Sequence record: OZ035800.1
Source of the DNA: Felixounavirus LF82P5
Strand: one strand, 5' to 3'
DNA length: 64,000 nucleotides
Below, piece by piece: positions 4,601 to 60,552 of this stretch (positions are counted from its first letter, which is position 1; every line of letters begins with the position of its first letter). The notes beneath the pieces are model-generated. The model had not been told where the DNA came from and did not search any database. It saw only the letters and a program-made list of their open reading frames with translations. A program made the position numbers and the translations under genes.

Positions 4601-4805
4601 CTTTCTTCTTCCGTTTGCGTGAAGTGTCAATCAATGAATCTATGTTTGTAGCCCTAACCTTTTCACGTTCATCATTGAGATAATCATCAAGAGCCTTCTC
4701 AATCTGTGAATCATCTTGACAGATGACTGTAAAGACTGTAAAGCCATCTGTATCATCAATTATATTACCATAACCGCTTCTGGGATGTAACTTTTTAAGA
4801 GCCAT
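4593..4805 (-). CDS. hypothetical protein
   Basis: 70-aa ORF with ATG start and basic C-terminus. Confidence 0.4.
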   Translation of the reverse strand: MALKKLHPRSGYGNIIDDTDGFTVFTVICQDDSQIEKALDDYLNDEREKVRATNIDSLIDTSRKRKKKDE

Positions 4806-4806
4806 A

Positions 4807-5190
4807 TTAGATACCTGTACAGCTTCTGTTTTCTAAGAAATACTCAACACCATACATAGCTTTTTGCATCAAATCTTCTTTAAACTGAATACGATGATTG
4901 AGCATAGTTTGTACATCAATATCGTCATGGTGTTTCTCTTTAATATTTGCAGATTGTAGGAAATACTCTGCAAGAACACGATACTGATAGTCAGTTACCT
5001 TATCAGTCATCTCTGTCAAAGACTCTTCAGAGATTGGTTTAAGTAGCTCACCATTAGCCAGAGCAACACCTTTTACAATCTGGCAAGTGTCTTCTGGAAC
5101 ACCTGATAAGTCTACATTTGGAAGTTCTGTTGCATTGACTGGTAAATTCATTGCCATAACCATTGCAGCGGCTAATAAAATCTTTTTCAT
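4807..5190 (-). CDS. secreted protein of unknown function
   Basis: N-terminal signal peptide MKKILLAAAMVMAMNLPVNA; GAGGT Shine-Dalgarno. Confidence 0.55.
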   Translation of the reverse strand: MKKILLAAAMVMAMNLPVNATELPNVDLSGVPEDTCQIVKGVALANGELLKPISEESLTEMTDKVTDYQYRVLAEYFLQSANIKEKHHDDIDVQTMLNHRIQFKEDLMQKAMYGVEYFLENRSCTGI

Positions 5191-56073: not shown

Positions 56074-56199
56074 AGGCTTATAAATACTTAGAAGATAACT
56101 TAAAAGGTTCCTCTAAAAAGGCTATTTAAACAGATATCTTTCTGGATATCTATCTTTTATCTTAAAAGCCTTTTAAGAGGTCTTATAAGAGGCATACCA

Positions 56200-56571
56200 A
56201 TGAAAAACAGAACAAACAAAGGCCAGTTTAAAAAAGGCCAGTCTGGAAACCCATCTGGAAGACCGAAAGGCTCTCGTAACAAAAGCTCACTCGTAAAAGC
56301 TCAACTGACCATTGATAATTCTGCTGAGTTTGCTGCAAAGTTGTTTGAGGCAATTGTTACAAGGGACGCTGCTAAGCTTGCAGAGTTCGGTTTAAACACA
56401 GATGACGTAACCATCAAGAGCATGATTGAGGTCGGTAAAACTATCTTTACTCACTCAGCAGGTGAGATGAAGGCACTTGCAGCAGACACTAAGAAGACTC
56501 CTGATAATGGTGGTCAACAACAGACAGATAACAAACCAACGTTCTCTGCTGTAGCGACTCTCAAAAAATAA
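56200..56571 (+). CDS. hypothetical protein with GNPSGRPKG motif
   Basis: 123 aa; N-terminal basic KGQFKKGQSGNPSGRPKGSRNK. Confidence 0.45.
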   Translation: MKNRTNKGQFKKGQSGNPSGRPKGSRNKSSLVKAQLTIDNSAEFAAKLFEAIVTRDAAKLAEFGLNTDDVTIKSMIEVGKTIFTHSAGEMKALAADTKKTPDNGGQQQTDNKPTFSAVATLKK

Positions 56572-56652: not shown

Positions 56653-58068
56653 ATGAGCGAGTTATTTAAACATGCGCACCTTCATGCAGGTCGAACTGAA
56701 AATGGTGCTGTAAACCATACTTCATCAATGTCTGCTCTGGTAGACTTCTACAAAGCCGCTGGCTCAAGCCGTAGCAATGTAGAAATCTTACCAGACCTGT
56801 TCTACAAAGCTTTGCGTGAGGATGTTGATGTTGCAGTTCGTATTTTACTGCATATGCGAGATGTACGAGAAGGTATGGGTGAGCGTAAAGCTTTCCGAAC
56901 TGTTTTACTTCAAGCGATTGAAGATAAAGTTTTAGAGCCTACACAGGTTCTTCGCATTATGGACAAGATTGCAGAACTTGGTCGTTTTGATGACTTCAAA
57001 ATCTTCGTAGGTACTCGTTTCGAGACAGATGCCTTCAAACATTTAGAAGCAGCATTACTAGACCCTGCAACAGCAGGTTTAGCAGCTAAGTGGTTGCCAC
57101 GAGTAAAACCACGCCACAAACAGTTTGTAAAACGTTTCTGTAAGTTTGCAAACTTAAGTGAGAAGGAGTATCGCACACTGTTATCTGCACTGTCTGATAC
57201 GGTTGAGCAAAAAATCTCTGCGAATGAGTTTGGTAAGATTGACTACAGCAAGATTCCTTCACTCGCTGCTGCACGTTACCAAAAACTCTTTAACCGTAAA
57301 GATGGGGAACGTTACAAAGCTTACATCGAGTCACTCTCAAAAGGTGAGTCTAAGATTAACGCTGGTGCTGTTTACCCATACGATGTGATTAAATCTATTA
57401 AGTATGGTAATGCAGATGTTGCTAATGAGCAGTGGAAAGCACTTCCAAACTGGATGGCAGAAGGTGAAAACATCTTGTGTATGACTGATGTTTCAAGCTC
57501 AATGTCTTGGGTGAATCTTGGCTCAATTACTGCCCTTGATATTGGTGTATCACTTGCCTTATATGTAGCAGAACGCAATACAGGTTGCTTTAAAGATGAG
57601 TTAATGGTCTATTCAACAAACCCTCATTTCATTGAACTGAGTGGTGATTTACGAAACCGTCATCGTCAGGTAATGCGTCATGTTGAATATGGTTCAACTA
57701 ACTTACAAGCAGCTTTTGACCGTATTCTTGAGATAGGTAAGAGAAACAACTTGACTCAGAAAGATATGCCAAGTAAGCTTATCATCTTCTCCGATATGGA
57801 GTTCAATCAGGTTGATGGAGCTAACGGTCGTACAAACTTTGAAGCAATTCAGAGTAAGTACAAAAAAGCTGGATATGAGATGCCACAACTAGTATTCTGG
57901 TACTTAGCAAACCGTAATGGTACTTGCGAAGTGTCTGTTAAGGATAATGGTGTAGCAATGGTATCAGGGTTCTCTCCAGCCACTTTAAAAGCTCTGCTTG
58001 GTGGTGAGAAGTTTGACCCAATCAGCGTAATGCTCAAAGCAGTAATGATTGACCGTTACATCTGGTAA
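56653..58068 (+). CDS. vWA-domain protein with N-terminal helical domain (possibly Ro60/TROVE-like)
   Basis: 471 aa; MIDAS-type DxSxS (MTDVSSSMS) with downstream Thr and LIIFSDMEF; helical N-terminal half; directly upstream of the tRNA array. Confidence 0.45.
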   Translation: MSELFKHAHLHAGRTENGAVNHTSSMSALVDFYKAAGSSRSNVEILPDLFYKALREDVDVAVRILLHMRDVREGMGERKAFRTVLLQAIEDKVLEPTQVLRIMDKIAELGRFDDFKIFVGTRFETDAFKHLEAALLDPATAGLAAKWLPRVKPRHKQFVKRFCKFANLSEKEYRTLLSALSDTVEQKISANEFGKIDYSKIPSLAAARYQKLFNRKDGERYKAYIESLSKGESKINAGAVYPYDVIKSIKYGNADVANEQWKALPNWMAEGENILCMTDVSSSMSWVNLGSITALDIGVSLALYVAERNTGCFKDELMVYSTNPHFIELSGDLRNRHRQVMRHVEYGSTNLQAAFDRILEIGKRNNLTQKDMPSKLIIFSDMEFNQVDGANGRTNFEAIQSKYKKAGYEMPQLVFWYLANRNGTCEVSVKDNGVAMVSGFSPATLKALLGGEKFDPISVMLKAVMIDRYIW

Positions 58069-58086: not shown

Positions 58087-58115
58087 TTGACAATGTGTTT
58101 GATACCCTTTAATAT
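58087..58115 (+). promoter_or_regulatory. sigma70-like promoter for the tRNA array
   Basis: TTGACA-17 nt-TAATAT; the -35 is embedded in the inverted repeat AGGGTAT...ATACCCT. Confidence 0.55.
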
Positions 58116-58233
58116 GTTCTACATAGAAACGAAATGAGAGCTTTTCTAAGATACTGAAAAATATTTTAAAAAAGTTCTTGACAACCACTAAAAAATAATG
58201 TTAAAGTGGTTACATAGAGTTTGAAAAGTTTAT

Positions 58234-58310: not shown

Positions 58311-58317
58311 AATTAAT

Positions 58318-58395
58318 GTTCCAGTAGACAAAATGGTAAAGTCACCACTCTTTCAAAGTGGATATTTGAGGGTTCAAATCCCTTCTGGAACGCCA
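58318..58395 (+). tRNA. tRNA-Glu (anticodon TTC)
   Basis: Acceptor GTTCCAG/CTGGAAC, anticodon stem CCACT/AGTGG, loop CTTTCAA, T-loop TTCAAAT, CCA. Confidence 0.65.
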
Positions 58396-58402
58396 GTTTT
58401 GA

Positions 58403-58475
58403 CAGAAGACCAATTGCAGCAAACTTAATCTTATTCATCTGACACGAAATCGGACAAAGAAGAGATTTGGTCTGG
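58403..58475 (+). ncRNA. stem-closed structured element E1 (candidate small RNA)
   Basis: 5' CAGAAGACCAATTGCAGCAA ... 3' TTTGGTCTGG; 7-bp closing stem AGACCAA/TTGGTCT. Confidence 0.35.
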
Positions 58476-58486
58476 TCATTAAGAAT

Positions 58487-58563
58487 TGCGGGTATAGAGA
58501 AAGGGCGTCTCACATGTCTCATTAGCATGGTATCGGCAGGTTCGACTCCTGCACCCGCCTCCA
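58487..58563 (+). tRNA. tRNA-Met (anticodon CAT)
   Basis: Anticodon stem CATGT/GCATG, loop CTCATTA, T-arm GCAGG-TTCGACT-CCTGC; U1-C72 mismatch in the acceptor stem. Confidence 0.55.
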
Positions 58564-58569
58564 ATTTTG

Positions 58570-58629
58570 CAGAAGACCGTATTCAGCAACAAAATACTTT
58601 TTGCGGATAAAAGAAAAAACACGGTCTGG
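58570..58629 (+). ncRNA. stem-closed structured element E2
   Basis: 5' CAGAAGACCGTATTCAGCAA ... 3' CACGGTCTGG; closing stem AGACCG/CGGTCT. Confidence 0.35.
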
Positions 58630-58640
58630 CAATGTATTAA

Positions 58641-58717
58641 GGTTAGGAAGCACATAAGGTATGTGCGGTCGCCTGTTAAGCGAATGGCACAGGGTTCGAA
58701 TCCCTGACTAACCGCCA
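58641..58717 (+). tRNA. tRNA-Asn (anticodon GTT)
   Basis: Acceptor GGTTAGG/ACTAACC, D-stem GCAC/GTGC, loop CTGTTAA, T-arm CAGGG-TTCGAAT-CCCTG, CCA. Confidence 0.6.
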
Positions 58718-58726
58718 AATTTAAAT

Positions 58727-58898: not shown

Positions 58899-58985
58899 AA
58901 TTATAATAAGTATTTCAAGATGATGTTTTGAGATGGCTATTTAGCCCCTCCCTTAAAGAGTTCTTACGAGTATTCTTTAAAGGAG

Positions 58986-59062
58986 CAGAAGACCAAATTC
59001 AGCAAGTACGTATGATATTTTCAAGCCAATTTAATTTTGAAAAAATTTAAAACTTGGTCTGG
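58986..59062 (+). ncRNA. stem-closed structured element E3
   Basis: 5' CAGAAGACCAAATTCAGCAA ... 3' ACTTGGTCTGG; 7-bp closing stem. Confidence 0.35.
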
Positions 59063-59075
59063 CTCAACAAATTTA

Positions 59076-59207
59076 CAGAAGACCGTTTACAGCAAAACTT
59101 AAACAATCTATTTCTCCGGTAAAGAAAAGGCGAAGGTTCGATTCCTTCACTCGGCAGATGTCGAGTTGGTGTAATGGTAGCACTTAAGATGATAAACAAC
59201 GGTCTGG
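59076..59207 (+). ncRNA. stem-closed element E4 with embedded permuted tRNA-like module (candidate Y-RNA-like RNA)
   Basis: 8-bp closing stem AGACCGTT/AACGGTCT; inner helix CTTAA/TTAAG; T-arm GAAGG-TTCGATT-CCTTC; acceptor-like helix ACTCGGC-AGAT-GTCGAGT capped by a 4-nt loop; D-arm GTGT-AATGGTA-GCAC. Confidence 0.4.
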
Positions 59208-59356
59208 TAATTATCTTTGTAGATAAGTTATTAAGCTTACCTGTGAGTATGCGACCACAAAGGGTGAAAGGGTAAATTCTAGATTTAAACCCAACAAGGC
59301 ACATCGCTACAGACCTTAAGCAAGTCTGGGTAGCTTATCTACAAAGATAATTTAAT

Positions 59357-59436: not shown

Positions 59437-59513
59437 GGTTCAGTCGCAGATAAGGTAATGCAGGGGTCTCATAAGCCCTATGAATGTGGGTTCGATTCCC
59501 ATCTGAACCTCCA
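59437..59513 (+). tRNA. tRNA-Met or tRNA-Ile2 (anticodon CAT)
   Basis: Acceptor GGTTCAG/CTGAACC, loop CTCATAA, T-arm GTGGG-TTCGATT-CCCAT, CCA. Confidence 0.55.
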
Positions 59514-59514
59514 A

Positions 59515-59590
59515 GCTGGTATAGTTAAGAAGGTTATAACACTCCCCTGATAAGGGAACATCGGTGGTTCGATTCCACCTACCAGTACCA
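59515..59590 (+). tRNA. tRNA-Ile (anticodon GAT)
   Basis: D-stem GTTA/TAAC, loop CTGATAA, T-arm GGTGG-TTCGATT-CCACC, CCA. Confidence 0.6.
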
Positions 59591-59605
59591 ATTTCAATAA
59601 AGTTG

Positions 59606-59634
59606 TTGACATTGAGATGTGACCACTTTATAGT
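59606..59634 (+). promoter_or_regulatory. internal sigma70-like promoter within the tRNA array
   Basis: TTGACA-17 nt-TATAGT. Confidence 0.5.
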
Positions 59635-59837
59635 AACCTTAGTTTTCGTTGCGTAGCGTCTATTTTGCAAATTTAAAATAAATGCAAACGACAATGTTTT
59701 TCTGGCAGTAGCTTGATAGGCTAAACACCAGTGAGGTCTTCCAATCCCTCATCAAAGAATTTGGCGTACTCGCCCACGGTATGATTAATAAGGTGGGCAT
59801 CTTTAAGGGCTTTCTAAGAGAGTCTTTAAAGATTAAT

Positions 59838-60147: not shown

Positions 60148-60552
60148 ATGAAACTTTGTAGAAAATGTTCTCAAGAAAAGCCTTTAAGCTGCTTTCATAA
60201 AAGAGGTAATGGCTATCAGTCTGCTTGCAAAGATTGTAAAGCTAAGTACTCAGCAAAGAGATACAAAGAAGACCCTACTTATAAAGCAAAAAGAAAAGTT
60301 AGGGCGAAATATGACAAAAAGAGGAACAGAGAGTTCCTTAGTAGATATAAAAAGTTTTGCAAATGCAGAATATGTGGCGAATCTGAGCCAGTAGCTTTGG
60401 ATTTTCATCACTTAGACCCTAAAGAGAAAGATTTTGCTCCAAGCAATCTTAAGACTTACTCTAGAGGCACTATTAAGCGTGAAGTCCGTAAGTGTGTTGT
60501 GCTTTGTTCAAACTGTCATAGGAAAGTTCATGCAGGACTGTTAAGTATTTAA
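60148..60552 (+). CDS. HNH endonuclease embedded in the tRNA array
   Basis: 134 aa; Cys-rich zinc-binding N-terminus and HNH core DFHHLDPKEKDF...CSNCHRKVH. Confidence 0.7.
   Translation: MKLCRKCSQEKPLSCFHKRGNGYQSACKDCKAKYSAKRYKEDPTYKAKRKVRAKYDKKRNREFLSRYKKFCKCRICGESEPVALDFHHLDPKEKDFAPSNLKTYSRGTIKREVRKCVVLCSNCHRKVHAGLLSI

What the first reader, a model, noticed from the sequence alone, without database searches (positions are those of the whole stretch)
59076..59207. Stem-closed RNA element carrying a circularly permuted tRNA-like module inside the tRNA array
Between tRNA-Asp and tRNA-Lys an 8-bp long-range stem (AGACCGTT / AACGGTCT) encloses about 115 nt containing, in order: an inner helix strand CTTAA, a spacer, a canonical T-arm (GAAGG-TTCGATT-CCTTC), a 7-bp acceptor-like helix whose two strands are joined by a 4-nt loop (ACTCGGC-AGAT-GTCGAGT), a D-arm (GTGT-AATGGTA-GCAC) and the partner strand TTAAG. 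This is a tRNA fold permuted at the anticodon loop, with the anticodon stem opening into a long helix. That architecture is what I recall for bacterial Y-RNA-like RNAs (Ro60-binding stem plus tRNA-like domain), and a vWA/TROVE-like protein is encoded about 1 kb upstream. A split or permuted tRNA gene is the alternative.
Basis: partly seen in the sequence, partly recalled or inferred. Interest (0 to 1): 0.85.

Follow-up and report, generated by a model that had tools for sequence, protein, structure and literature searches.

The report
Phage Y-RNA-like RNA beside Ro60-like gene
The element is a real, conserved small RNA gene with a tRNA-like middle, one of four related RNAs beside a Ro60-like phage protein, and their shared stem "handle" matches the amoeba Class I RNAs, whose function is unknown and which were reported as unique to Dictyostelia.

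Summary
Window 59073-59210 (+) folds as described: closing stem, inner helix, variable arm, T-arm, 7-bp acceptor-like hairpin and D-arm. The window is a Felixounavirus. All four share the handle AAG-stem-UUACAGCAA ... stem-CUG.

The same handle lies on the gene strand next to homologous genes in very different phages: 114 hits against 11 on the opposite strand, 88 of them within 1 kb, with 54 different helix sequences. In at least ten loci it encloses the same T/acceptor/D module. Several of those loci give sub-threshold full-length matches to Rfam YrlA, up to 39.6 bits.

I conclude it is a Y-RNA-like partner of a divergent Ro60-like protein. It is YrlA-like in its tRNA module but not a formal YrlA member: no 5' GNCGAA motif and no Rfam hit.

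The handle reproduces the Dictyostelium Class I RNA signature (Rfam RF01414, eight on-target hits, seven at 15-25 bits). Expression and protein binding are untested.

The parts
56653..58068 (+). Gene for a 471-aa Ro60-like ring protein (HEAT-repeat ring plus vWA domain). Pfam calls it DUF2828 + DUF7788; PHROG 850 calls it 'RNA-binding protein'.
58087..58207 (+). Two sigma-70-like promoters (58087-58115 and 58178-58207) in front of the tRNA / small-RNA array.
   Evidence: No + strand terminator-like site lies between them and the next promoter at 59606, so the four elements appear to sit in one tRNA transcription unit (inference).
58400..58478 (+). Short stem-closed element 1. Outer stem TGAC/GTCA; handle helix 58407-58413 / 58467-58473; CAGCAA 58417-58422; conserved G 58474.
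   Evidence: Hit by the phage-only covariance model R1 at 20.7 bits, E 0.064.
58567..58632 (+). Short stem-closed element 2. Outer stem TTGC/GCAA; handle helix 58574-58580 / 58621-58627; CAGCAA 58584-58589.
   Evidence: R1 27.9 bits, E 0.0014, the best hit in the window. Rfam Dicty_Class_I_RNA 24.0 bits. In other Felixounaviruses the outer stem is TTAC/GTAA, a compensatory change.
58983..59065 (+). Short stem-closed element 3. Outer stem GAGC/GCTC; handle helix 58990-58996 / 59054-59060; CAGCAA 59000-59005.
   Evidence: R1 15.6 bits, E 0.93, which is marginal.
59073..59210 (+). Element 4, the finding: the handle plus a circularly permuted tRNA-like domain.
   Evidence: Orthologue alignment with compensatory changes.
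59080..59095 (+). 5' half of the handle: helix strand AGACCGUU (59080-59087) followed by the motif UUUACAGCAA (59086-59095).
   Evidence: Sequence. Across phages the helix start lies exactly 10 nt before CAGCAA: 98 hits at that spacing on the gene strand against 25 on the other strand.
59198..59206 (+). 3' half of the handle: AACGGUCU plus the conserved unpaired G.
59098..59127 (+). Inner-helix 5' strand CUUAA (59098-59102), CUAU (59108-59111, matching YrlA's YUAY) and the variable-arm hairpin (59111-59127).
   Evidence: The variable arm is kept with a different sequence in phage Maleficent. YUAY is described in PMC4201824.
59132..59148 (+). T-arm GAAGG-UUCGAUU-CCUUC.
   Evidence: Invariant in the Ounavirinae alignment. 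Partial tRNA model hit of 22-23 bits.
59149..59166 (+). Acceptor-like hairpin ACUCGGC-AGAU-GUCGAGU.
   Evidence: three of its 7 pairs change on both sides and stay paired among five Ounavirinae (for example ACCCUUC/GAAGGGU in Maleficent).
59167..59188 (+). UG (the tRNA positions 8-9 equivalent), D-arm GUGU-AAUGGUA-GCAC (59169-59183), and inner-helix 3' strand UUAAG (59184-59188).
   Evidence: Near-identical D-arms (GUGUAAYGGUAGCAY) occur in the distant loci L011 4557-4670 and L035 4789-4897.

Best explanation
The element is a non-coding RNA gene of the Y-RNA kind. It is transcribed with the phage tRNAs from the promoters just downstream of the Ro60-like gene and cut out of the precursor.

Its closing 'handle' has five parts: a variable outer stem, an A-rich bulge, a helix that always opens with A-U and G-C pairs, the single-stranded UUACAGCAA, and a closing CUG. 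I propose that this handle docks onto the ring protein encoded at 56653-58068. The interior is an exchangeable module. In copy 4 it is a tRNA look-alike (T-arm, acceptor-like hairpin, D-arm, variable arm; no anticodon loop). In copies 1-3 it is only a short A-rich loop or hairpin, parallel to YrlA and YrlB in bacteria.

By analogy with Ro60/Rsr-Y RNA particles, the RNA would gate the ring or tether it to other factors. The tRNA-like module could recruit tRNA-recognising enzymes or act as a tRNA decoy during infection.

Shown here: the structure is conserved and covaries; the family is tightly linked, in a strand-specific way, to genes of this protein family across distant phages; the protein has the Ro60 fold.

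Inferred: transcription and processing, direct binding of the handle by the protein, and any role of the tRNA-like module.
For: (1) Structure. The minimum-energy fold matches the description. Orthologues in Felixounavirus, Mooglevirus and Suspvirus keep the acceptor-like stem through double changes at 3 of 7 pairs, and keep the handle, T-arm and D-arm.

(2) Four paralogous copies share the handle, and their outer 4-bp stems covary: UGAC/GUCA, UUGC/GCAA, GAGC/GCUC, UUAC/GUAA.

(3) The protein has the Ro60 fold. It is 33% identical over its full length to mycobacteriophage proteins annotated 'Ro-like RNA binding protein'.

(4) Family. I scanned 82 non-Ounavirinae loci carrying a homologous gene, with a fixed-register test: a helix of at least 6 bp starting 10 nt before CAGCAA, with its partner strand followed by G.
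- 114 hits on the gene strand against 11 on the other strand.
- 88 of the 114 lie within 1 kb of the gene.
- 57 of the 82 loci have at least one.
- That is about 5.4 per 10 kb, against 0.45 per 10 kb per strand in 1.06 Mb of unrelated viral DNA.
- 54 different helix 7-mers occur among 82 unique elements.
The family is present in phages of Mycobacterium, Listeria, Staphylococcus, Enterococcus, Campylobacter and Klebsiella.

(5) At least ten loci hold the same T / acceptor / D module inside the handle. YrlA (RF02553) scores 39.6 bits (E 2e-7, full length) on Klebsiella phage FBKp34, 39.1 and 29.6 on L011, 39.2 on L028 (model positions 24-84 only), 24.7 on L014 and 21.4 on Rumpelstiltskin.

(6) A covariance model built only from other phages ranks the four Felix copies among the six best hits in the 64-kb window: 27.9, 20.7, 15.6 and 15.5 bits.

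(7) Control: the 24-kb tRNA array of phage T5 has no hit on the tRNA strand. No T5-like record appeared among the rows shown, but I did not check directly that T5 lacks the gene.

(8) Literature. Bas63 gp130 is described as Ro60-like, and its authors guessed that Y RNAs hide among the tRNA genes (PMC11482910). Phage phiLo Ro60 binds two phage-encoded Y-like RNAs (PMC12135203).
Against: There are no expression data and no binding data.

This copy gets no Rfam YrlA hit even in a 166-nt search at E <= 10. It lacks GNCGAAN0-1G near its 5' end.

Single-sequence folding is not significant (z -1.73).

The phage-only covariance model is weakly discriminating. Copies 3 and 4 score about 15.5 bits, E about 1, and two unrelated sites score 16-17 bits.

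The helix requirement was part of my family definition, so pairing percentages within the selected set are circular. Only the strand asymmetry, the proximity to the gene and the background rate are independent evidence.

25 of 82 loci showed no element under the exact-CAGCAA rule.

gp130 alone, from a plasmid or inserted in T7, counters the ppl defence (PMC11482910). That activity therefore does not need the Felix RNAs.
Confidence: 0.72

Rival explanations
1. The RNAs are real and act in trans, but not through the neighbouring Ro60-like protein. They might be decoys or sponges for a host tRNA-targeting defence nuclease, or ligands of another RNA-binding protein, as Class I RNA binds the RRM protein Rnp1A in Dictyostelium.
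For: gp130 counters ppl without the phage RNAs. In Dictyostelium the only proven direct binder of a Class I RNA is an RRM protein (PMC7919456). The tRNA-like module suggests mimicry.
Against: 88 of 114 same-strand elements lie within 1 kb of the gene, in phages as different as mycobacteriophages, Listeria phages and Campylobacter phages. Several of those loci show no tRNA array in the fetched stretch (SEP9 and Rumpelstiltskin). Conserved linkage of this kind is the pattern seen for Rsr and YrlA (PMC4201824).
Confidence: 0.12
2. The repeated stems are punctuation marks of the tRNA precursor, meaning recognition sites for processing RNases. Copy 4 merely encloses a decayed tRNA.
For: All four copies sit between tRNAs in one apparent transcription unit. 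The protein gene often neighbours tRNA arrays.
Against: Three elements stand in tandem right after the gene in Staphylococcus phage SEP9 and in mycobacteriophage Rumpelstiltskin, with no tRNA beside them. The T5 tRNA array has none. The T, acceptor and D arms are conserved or covary across genera and recur in at least ten distant loci, which is not decay. The stems (4 + 8 bp) are short for RNase III.
Confidence: 0.08
3. It is a circularly permuted or split tRNA gene whose transcript is rearranged into a working tRNA.
For: T-arm, 7-bp acceptor helix and D-arm in permuted order. Partial tRNA model hit of 22-23 bits.
Against: There is no anticodon loop; the 'anticodon stem' runs into the handle. 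There is no CCA. ARAGORN calls nothing here, and the 27 tRNAs already cover all 20 amino acids. The tRNA score is below the 29-bit threshold. The same handle closes copies without tRNA parts.
Confidence: 0.03
4. The interval encodes a protein on the minus strand. ORF 59047-59304 (85 aa) is annotated as a hypothetical CDS in phage wV8, with a similarity note to a Felix O1 protein.
For: An ORF exists. It is annotated in wV8 with a note of similarity to a Felix O1 protein.
Against: Its sequence contains GIEPSPF, the reverse translation of a T-arm. Neighbouring ORFs that overlap true tRNAs on the wrong strand show the same thing (GFEPS, GFEPC, GIEPT). Substitutions among orthologues preserve RNA pairing on the + strand.
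Confidence: 0.02

Closest known systems
YrlA / YrlB, the bacterial Y RNAs bound by Rsr (Chen et al. 2014, PMC4201824; Rfam RF02553)
   Same: Encoded close to a Ro60-fold protein and on the same strand. A long terminal stem encloses a tRNA-like domain in the order variable arm, T-arm, acceptor-like hairpin, D-arm. YUAY comes before the variable arm. Shorter sister RNAs lacking the tRNA module are encoded alongside. Relatives of this element score up to 39.6 bits on the YrlA model.
   Different: The partner protein is DUF2828/DUF7788, not Pfam TROVE. The terminal stem carries UUACAGCAA instead of GNCGAAN0-1G. This copy has no YrlA hit, and no relative reaches the 69-bit threshold. There are four copies, embedded in a phage tRNA array.
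Class I RNAs of dictyostelid amoebae (Aspegren 2004; Avesson 2011; Kjellin 2021, PMC7919456; Rfam RF01414)
   Same: A terminal stem of about 6-8 bp whose sequence varies and covaries. The conserved start AAG and end CUG. The motif (C)CUUACAGCAA directly after the 5' stem strand. A variable interior with an A-rich tract before the 3' strand. Length about 45-70 nt for the short copies. Many clustered copies. The Rfam model hits eight phage elements and nothing else in about 142 kb searched.
   Different: One nucleotide fewer lies between the opening G and CAGCAA. All scores are below the 41.5-bit threshold. The setting is bacterial promoters and co-transcription with tRNAs, not DUSE promoters. 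Some phage members carry large inserts, including tRNA-like domains. The known amoeba binder is an RRM protein. I could not test whether dictyostelids have a DUF2828 protein.
Yrl1 / Yrl2 of Thermus phage phiLo with phage Ro60 (PMC12135203)
   Same: A phage-encoded Ro60-fold protein with several adjacent small stem-closed RNAs. The phiLo structures are among the best structural matches to the window protein.
   Different: The phiLo protein is a recognisable TROVE protein, and its RNAs carry the CGAA motif. No tRNA-like domain or UUACAGCAA motif is mentioned in the passages I read.
Circularly permuted tRNA genes (Cyanidioschyzon merolae) and two-piece tmRNA
   Same: tRNA elements appear in permuted order in the gene.
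   Different: Those are processed into molecules with a complete anticodon arm or a tag reading frame. Here the anticodon loop is absent and replaced by a conserved protein-handle-like stem.

Membership tests
YrlA (Rfam RF02553; Chen et al. 2014) | Encoded within about 4 kb of a Ro60 orthologue and on the same strand | tested here: met
   The element starts 1005 nt after the stop of ORF 56653-58068, on the same strand. The ORF has the Ro60 fold, although it is not a Pfam TROVE member.
YrlA (Rfam RF02553; Chen et al. 2014) | tRNA-like domain in the order V arm, T-arm, acceptor-like stem-loop, D-arm, closed by a long stem | tested here: met
   Covariation in the acceptor-like stem.
YrlA (Rfam RF02553; Chen et al. 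2014) | Conserved YUAY at the start of the V loop | tested here: met
   CUAU at 59108-59111, immediately before the V hairpin. CUAC, CUAU and CUAA occupy the same place in L011 and L087. A 4-nt match is weak evidence on its own.
YrlA (Rfam RF02553; Chen et al. 2014) | GNCGAAN0-1G motif near the 5' end (the proposed Rsr contact) | tested here: not met
   The 5' region reads AGAAGACCGUUUACAGCAA. The only GGCGAAG (59130-59136) forms the 5' side of the T-stem, which is the wrong place.
YrlA (Rfam RF02553; Chen et al. 2014) | Covariance-model score at or above the gathering score (69 bits) | tested here: not met
   No YrlA hit at E <= 10 in 2.1-kb and 166-nt searches. Relatives reach 21-39.6 bits.
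YrlA (Rfam RF02553; Chen et al. 2014) | Bound by the Ro60 orthologue in vivo; tRNA-type modifications; substrate for RNase P | not testable with these tools
   Needs immunoprecipitation, modification mapping and cleavage assays.
Dictyostelid Class I RNA (Rfam RF01414; Kjellin et al. 2021) | Short terminal stem joining the 5' and 3' ends; structure conserved, sequence variable | tested here: met
   (54 distinct helix 7-mers among 82 elements).
Dictyostelid Class I RNA (Rfam RF01414; Kjellin et al. 2021) | 11-nt motif CCUUACAGCAA adjacent to the 5' stem strand | tested here: met
   Copy 4 reads GUUUACAGCAA. Copies 1-3 read AAUUGCAGCAA, GUAUUCAGCAA and AAAUUCAGCAA. The phage consensus is UUACAGCAA, against D. 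discoideum CCUUACAGCAA. CAGCAA was a search criterion, so its invariance in my set is by construction.
Dictyostelid Class I RNA (Rfam RF01414; Kjellin et al. 2021) | Conserved ends: start AAG, end CUGU | tested here: met
   All four copies read GAAGACC ... GGUCUGG, that is AAG ... CUG followed by G instead of U. The phage consensus is AAAGG ... CCUGU.
Dictyostelid Class I RNA (Rfam RF01414; Kjellin et al. 2021) | Covariance-model score at or above the gathering score (41.5 bits) | tested here: not met
   Copy 2 scores 24.0 bits and copy 4 scores 12.8 bits. Elements in other phages score 15.5-25.2 bits.
Dictyostelid Class I RNA (Rfam RF01414; Kjellin et al. 2021) | Length 42-65 nt; DUSE promoter about 60 nt upstream; dictyostelid genome | tested here: not met
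   Copies 1-3 measure 54-71 nt helix to helix, and copy 4 measures 126 nt. The setting is bacterial-type promoters in a phage genome.
tRNA / permuted tRNA gene | Complete cloverleaf including an anticodon stem with a 7-nt loop; model score of at least 29 bits | tested here: not met
   ARAGORN makes no call. RF00005 gives 22.0-22.9 bits, partial. No anticodon loop is present.
Ro60 / TROVE proteins (for ORF 56653-58068) | Sequence membership in Pfam TROVE (PF05731) | tested here: not met
   One search finds only DUF2828, DUF7788 and a weak VWA_2 match. A profile search against PDB sequences gives only a weak hit to the Ro60 vWA domain, E 0.26.
Ro60 / TROVE proteins (for ORF 56653-58068) | Fold: HEAT-repeat ring closed by a vWA domain with a MIDAS motif | tested here: met

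The most novel reading that the evidence does not exclude
The phage RNAs and the dictyostelid Class I RNAs are one RNA family, defined by the handle AAG-stem-UUACAGCAA ... stem-CUG. The conserved partner of that family is the DUF2828 branch of Ro60-like ring proteins.

If so, Class I RNAs would be the 'Y RNAs' of a DUF2828 protein in amoebae. Those RNAs are abundant, developmentally regulated, of unknown mechanism since 2004, and published as unique to Dictyostelia. The RNA-protein pair may have moved between phage or bacterial prey and amoebae. In phages the handle serves as a universal adaptor for exchangeable modules: a permuted tRNA-like domain, an unpermuted tRNA, and larger conserved inserts.
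Probability: 0.35. Interest if true: 0.9.

Novelty: new variant of a known kind. Interest (0 to 1): 0.8.

Why it matters
- It supplies concrete candidate RNA partners, with coordinates, for the Felixounavirus Ro60-like protein. The orthologue of that protein in Bas63 (gp130) was shown to counter the ppl defence, and its authors could only guess that Y RNAs hide among the tRNA genes.
- It shows that the Ro60 / Y-RNA partnership extends to the DUF2828 protein family, which matched 709 phage records, with a distinct RNA handle. The 2014 YrlA survey collected only genomes annotated with a TROVE domain.
- These intervals carry no RNA annotation in the records examined, and in wV8 the interval holds a probably spurious CDS.
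- The handle reproduces the signature of Dictyostelium Class I RNAs. This contradicts the published view that the signature is restricted to Dictyostelia. It also gives a directly testable hypothesis for their mechanism: binding to a Ro60-like DUF2828 protein.

Tried and rejected
- Searching distant loci for the Felix-specific GACC/GGTC helix found nothing beyond chance. The helix sequence is not conserved; only its register and flanks are.
- MAFFT alignment of eight tRNA-like family members was too poor to use for covariation. I used orthologues and per-sequence folds instead.
- Reciprocal test: I scanned IMG/VR for AAAGGN5TTACAGCAA. A pattern of 14 specified bases is too unspecific for a database of that size, so the test says nothing either way.
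- The phage-only covariance model R1 has low information content (0.70 bits per position). It separates copies 3 and 4 poorly from background.
- Sequence searches of the protein against the PDB gave only a weak Ro60 vWA match. The fold comparison was needed.
- I could not determine whether Dictyostelium encodes a DUF2828 protein. The AlphaFold-database library was unavailable. The paper listing the four Class I RNA-binding proteins (Avesson 2011) is not held. Motif searches in the partial proteome supplements found only an unrelated vWA protein.
- Literature searches found no paper linking Class I RNAs to Ro60, Y RNA or TROVE. They found none on DUF2828 RNA partners and no Felix O1 small-RNA transcriptome.
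- The guessed accession for Bas63 was wrong. Orthology of gp130 to the window ORF therefore rests on the preprint's description.
- Rejected: permuted tRNA gene, minus-strand ORF, and tRNA-array punctuation (see the rival explanations).
Full report
**What the window is.** The 3-kb stretch around the finding is 100% identical to Felixounavirus LF82P5 and 96-99% identical to the best-matching Felix O1-like phages listed. The last 6 kb of the window is a tRNA array: 27 tRNAs, all on the + strand, covering all 20 amino acids.

**The observation.**
- Closing stem AGACCGTT / AACGGTCT (59080-59087 / 59198-59205).
- Inner helix CTTAA / TTAAG (59098-59102 / 59184-59188).
- T-arm (59132-59148).
- 7-bp acceptor-like hairpin with a 4-nt loop (59149-59166).
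- D-arm (59169-59183).

Two features were not listed: a 4-bp outer stem (59073-59076 / 59207-59210) and a variable-arm hairpin (59111-59127). RNAfold gives this structure as the minimum-energy fold. The energy is not exceptional for the composition, with z = -1.73, so the single sequence proves little.

**The element is one of four.** The string AGAAGACCnnnnnCAGCAA occurs four times without mismatch at 58404, 58571, 58987 and 59077. No shuffle out of 100 reached the observed count. Each copy has a matching GGTCTGG downstream. All four fold the same way: a 4-bp outer stem, a 3-nt bulge (AGA), a 7-8-bp helix, then CAGCAA, and on the 3' side a single bulged G. The outer stems differ and covary: UGAC/GUCA, UUGC/GCAA, GAGC/GCUC, UUAC/GUAA. 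Copy 2 is UUAC/GUAA in other Felixounaviruses. Only the fourth copy holds the tRNA-like interior. The others hold 30-45 nt of A-rich loop or small hairpins.

**The neighbouring protein.** ORF 56653-58068 ends 1005 nt upstream on the same strand. Pfam calls it DUF2828 + DUF7788 with a weak vWA match and no TROVE hit. PHROG 850 calls it 'RNA-binding protein'. Sequence searches against the PDB give only a marginal match to the vWA domain of Ro60.

The AlphaFold model, built on 32 homologues (pLDDT 87.6, pTM 0.88), settles the question.
- The eleven best Foldseek matches are all Ro60, Rsr or phage TROVE structures. The best is 2i91_A, E 1.4e-7, TM 0.66.
- The MIDAS residues D279, S281 and S283 are invariant.
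- By tblastn the protein is about 33% identical over its full length to mycobacteriophage proteins annotated 'Ro-like RNA binding protein'. It has relatives in 709 phage records, from phages of Listeria, Staphylococcus, Enterococcus, Bacillus, Campylobacter, Vibrio, Aeromonas and others.

[quoted passage not shown] Its authors speculate that some of the tRNA genes may be Y RNAs, and they define none (PMC11482910).

**Orthologues.** Copy 4 aligns across Felixounavirus (wV8), Mooglevirus (Silverhawkium, Maleficent) and Suspvirus (mistaenkt). The handle, T-arm and D-arm are invariant. The acceptor-like stem reads ACUCGGC/GUCGAGU, then ACACG/CGUGU, then ACCCUUC/GAAGGGU. RNAalifold counts double, pair-preserving changes at 3 of its 7 pairs, and one more in the variable arm. 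This is selection on RNA structure on the + strand. It also argues against the minus-strand ORF 59047-59304, which wV8 annotates as a CDS. That ORF's product contains GIEPSPF, the reverse reading of a T-arm, as do other spurious ORFs over tRNAs here.

**A family across distant phages.** I fetched 80 IMG/VR loci with homologues (five nearly identical, the rest 39-47% identical) and GenBank loci from seven further phage groups. The Felix helix sequence GACC/GGTC is not conserved in them, but the architecture is.

Immediately after mycobacteriophage Rumpelstiltskin gp54 stand three tandem elements: TGGACGC-TAA-CAGCAA ... GCGTCCA-G and two more like it. The middle one holds a T-arm, an acceptor-like hairpin and a D-arm.

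A scan for a helix followed by CAGCAA shows a sharp preference for a helix start exactly 10 nt before CAGCAA: 98 hits on the gene strand against 25 on the other strand. With the stricter rule (helix opens [A/U]G, at least 7 bp, partner strand followed by G) there are 71 hits on the gene strand and 1 on the other.

With a fixed-register rule applied to the 82 non-Ounavirinae loci:
- 114 hits on the gene strand against 11 on the other strand;
- 88 of the 114 lie within 1 kb of the gene (37 upstream, 51 downstream);
- 57 loci have at least one.

The density near the gene is about 5.4 per 10 kb. It is 0.45 per 10 kb per strand in 1.06 Mb of unrelated viral DNA, and zero on the tRNA strand of the 24-kb T5 tRNA array. 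In the window itself, hits outside the cluster are at that background level.

The consensus is aAAAGGAUnnUUACAGCAAAcuA ... AAACnnAUCC-UG-uu. There are 54 different helix 7-mers among 82 unique elements, and three to five Watson-Crick pair types at each variable helix position. Because pairing and CAGCAA were selection criteria, the independent evidence is the strand bias, the proximity to the gene and the background rate.

A covariance model built only from non-Ounavirinae members places the four Felix copies among the six best hits in the window. The scores are 27.9 bits (E 0.0014), 20.7 (E 0.064), 15.6 and 15.5. The last two are not separable from two unrelated hits at 16-17 bits.

**The tRNA-like module recurs.** Inside the same handle, a T-arm, an acceptor-like hairpin and a D-arm in that order occur in L011 (twice by my scan, plus a third Rfam hit), L014, L025, L031, L035, L047, Rumpelstiltskin and Klebsiella phage FBKp34. 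The D-arm GUGUAAYGGUAGCAY is nearly the same in Felix, L011 and L035.

Rfam's YrlA model (RF02553, threshold 69 bits) matches several of these over its full length but below threshold:
- FBKp34 4707-4814: 39.6 bits, E 2e-7;
- L011 4307-4407: 39.1 bits;
- L011 4425-4538: 29.6 bits;
- L014: 24.7 bits.

L028 4865-4927 scores 39.2 bits over model positions 24-84 only, and Rumpelstiltskin scores 21.4 bits over part of the model. In the FBKp34 alignment the YrlA model covers the CUA, the inner stem, and the T, acceptor and D arms, but starts after the CAGCAA handle. The Felix copy itself gets no YrlA hit, even when only 166 nt are searched.

The published YrlA survey collected genomes annotated with a TROVE domain and described GNCGAAN0-1G as the 5' motif (PMC4201824). 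The DUF2828-linked class seen here carries a different 5' motif (UUACAGCAA) and reaches at most 39.6 bits on the current Rfam YrlA model. Other family members carry other interiors. These include an unpermuted tRNA (L047 4734-4833; tRNA model 52.9 bits) and two further conserved insert types of about 95-130 nt and 200-250 nt. The handle therefore behaves as a constant adaptor for variable modules, as is said of Y RNAs.

**An unexpected match.** The relaxed Rfam searches repeatedly returned RF01414, Class I RNA from Dictyostelium, and it fell exactly on these elements:
- window copy 2: 24.0 bits;
- window copy 4: 12.8 bits;
- FBKp34: 25.2, 23.6 and 15.5 bits;
- L061: 23.4 bits;
- Listeria phage LMSP-25: 23.1 bits;
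- Staphylococcus phage SEP9: 22.9 bits.

That family hit nothing else in about 142 kb searched on both strands. All scores are below its 41.5-bit threshold.

The model consensus reads GaUcuC-CUUACAGCAA-UuaAAac ... GagAuC-UG. The curated D. discoideum sequences read GUUGAC-CUUACAGCAA-AUCUUACA ... GUCAAC-UG. The defining paper lists these features: 42-65 nt; a roughly 6-bp terminal stem with many compensatory changes; an 11-nt motif next to the 5' stem strand; conserved start AAG and end CUGU; a variable interior; clustered multi-copy genes. It concludes that the class is unique to Dictyostelia, after searching a range of eukaryotes and Myxococcus (PMC7919456).

The phage handle shares all the RNA-intrinsic features. 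It has one nucleotide fewer between the opening G and CAGCAA. I found no paper connecting Class I RNAs with Ro60, Y RNAs or TROVE.

I could not test whether dictyostelids encode a DUF2828 protein. The AlphaFold-database library was unavailable, the paper naming the four Class I RNA-associated proteins is not held, and the supplement searches were uninformative. That DUF2828 proteins occur in eukaryotes rests on my own knowledge of Pfam and on the plant papers returned.

**How it most likely works.**

Shown:
- a conserved, covarying RNA structure;
- four paralogues;
- tight, strand-specific linkage of the handle to genes for a Ro60-fold protein across very distant phages;
- a tRNA-like module related to YrlA.

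Inferred:
- The RNAs are made from the promoters at 58087 and 58178 as part of the tRNA precursor. No + strand terminator-like site lies before 59606.
- They are trimmed by tRNA-processing enzymes.
- The handle binds the ring protein.
- The module tethers or gates it, as Y RNA does for Rsr and PNPase (PMC4201824, PMC12135203).
- The tRNA-like copy may recruit tRNA-recognising enzymes or imitate tRNA.

One published result cuts against an obligatory role. gp130 alone protects T7 from ppl, so the RNAs may modulate the protein or serve another function.

**Verdict.** By function and architecture it is a Y-RNA-like RNA. It is not a formal member of YrlA or of the Class I family by their thresholds and full definitions. 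I rate it a new variant of a known kind. The open possibility is that it unites two RNA families previously thought unrelated.

Noticed in passing
window 59209-59352 (+): A conserved structured RNA of about 145 nt lies between element 4 and tRNA-Lys. It has a closing stem of about 24 bp, MFE -48.3 kcal/mol and z -5.9; no shuffle out of 200 folded as well. The closing stem shows compensatory changes in Mooglevirus and Suspvirus. Inside it is a small hairpin, AGAC-CUUAAGCAA-GUCU-GG, which reads AAACC-CUUUAGCAA-GGUUU-G in relatives. That hairpin looks like a minimal version of the handle, with the motif as its loop.
   Followed up: partly
window 58899-58985 (+): The spacer between tRNA-Asp and element 3 folds into three hairpins. 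MFE -23.3 kcal/mol, z -4.1, and 1 of 200 shuffles folds as well. Function unknown.
   Followed up: no
window 59532-59837 (+): Sub-threshold Rfam matches to permuted tmRNA (59532-59716, 29.6 bits, threshold 47) and to tmRNA (59648-59837, 15.9 bits). They lie in the 250-nt gap between tRNA-Ile and tRNA-Arg, which also holds the strongest promoter-like site (59606-59634).
   Followed up: no
window 59047-59304 (-), also 58313-58564 (-), 58479-58718 (-), 59440-59694 (-): Minus-strand ORFs of 79-85 aa run across tRNAs and the elements. Their products contain GFEP or GIEP, the reverse reading of T-arms. The first is annotated as a hypothetical CDS in phage wV8, with a similarity note to a Felix O1 protein. 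All are probably spurious.
   Followed up: partly
window 60148-60552 (+): An HNH endonuclease ORF (PHROG 2255, E 1.5e-45) sits inside the tRNA array. In phage mistaenkt an annotated HNH homing endonuclease gene is inserted between tRNA-Asn and tRNA-Asp, inside the stretch that holds the elements. The array is therefore a target for homing genes.
   Followed up: no
L047 4734-4833; L008 3840-4064, L020 628-833, L033 4409-4659, L035 4066-4318; L008 4276-4370, L009 3133-3232, L014 149-280, L020 1265-1373, L033 4734-4828: Other interiors occur inside the same handle. One is an unpermuted tRNA-like insert (tRNA model 52.9 bits). One is a conserved insert class of 200-250 nt. One is a class of 95-130 nt sharing CCUUUCUGGAGGGGAAAGCAAAAACUCGCC.
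   Followed up: partly
L025 190-657; L083 1428-1979; L083 5808-7019; L028 10696-10922: Large phage RNAs lie near the Ro60-like gene: GOLLD (117 bits, threshold 150) and ROOL (88.5 bits, threshold 99). An RtcB-type gene, annotated 'tRNA-splicing ligase', lies about 1.3 kb downstream of the gene in Listeria phage LMSP-25, which recalls the bacterial rsr-yrlBA-rtcBA operon. L028 also holds a group I intron.
   Followed up: no
L031 6895-7015 and 7025-7137; L087 5003-5113; L011 4358-4485; L050 9184-9302: Unusually long tRNA-model matches of 111-128 nt occur next to the elements. One of them is annotated as a 114-nt tRNA-Asp in Klebsiella phage FBKp34. They may contain introns or be fused with handle elements.
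   Followed up: no
window 56125-56158 (-): A small hairpin, AGAUAUC-6 nt-GAUAUCUG, lies in the gap before ORF 56200-56571. It scored 17.0 bits with the handle model because of its AG...CUG closing pairs. It has no CAGCAA and is probably a terminator-like hairpin.
   Followed up: no
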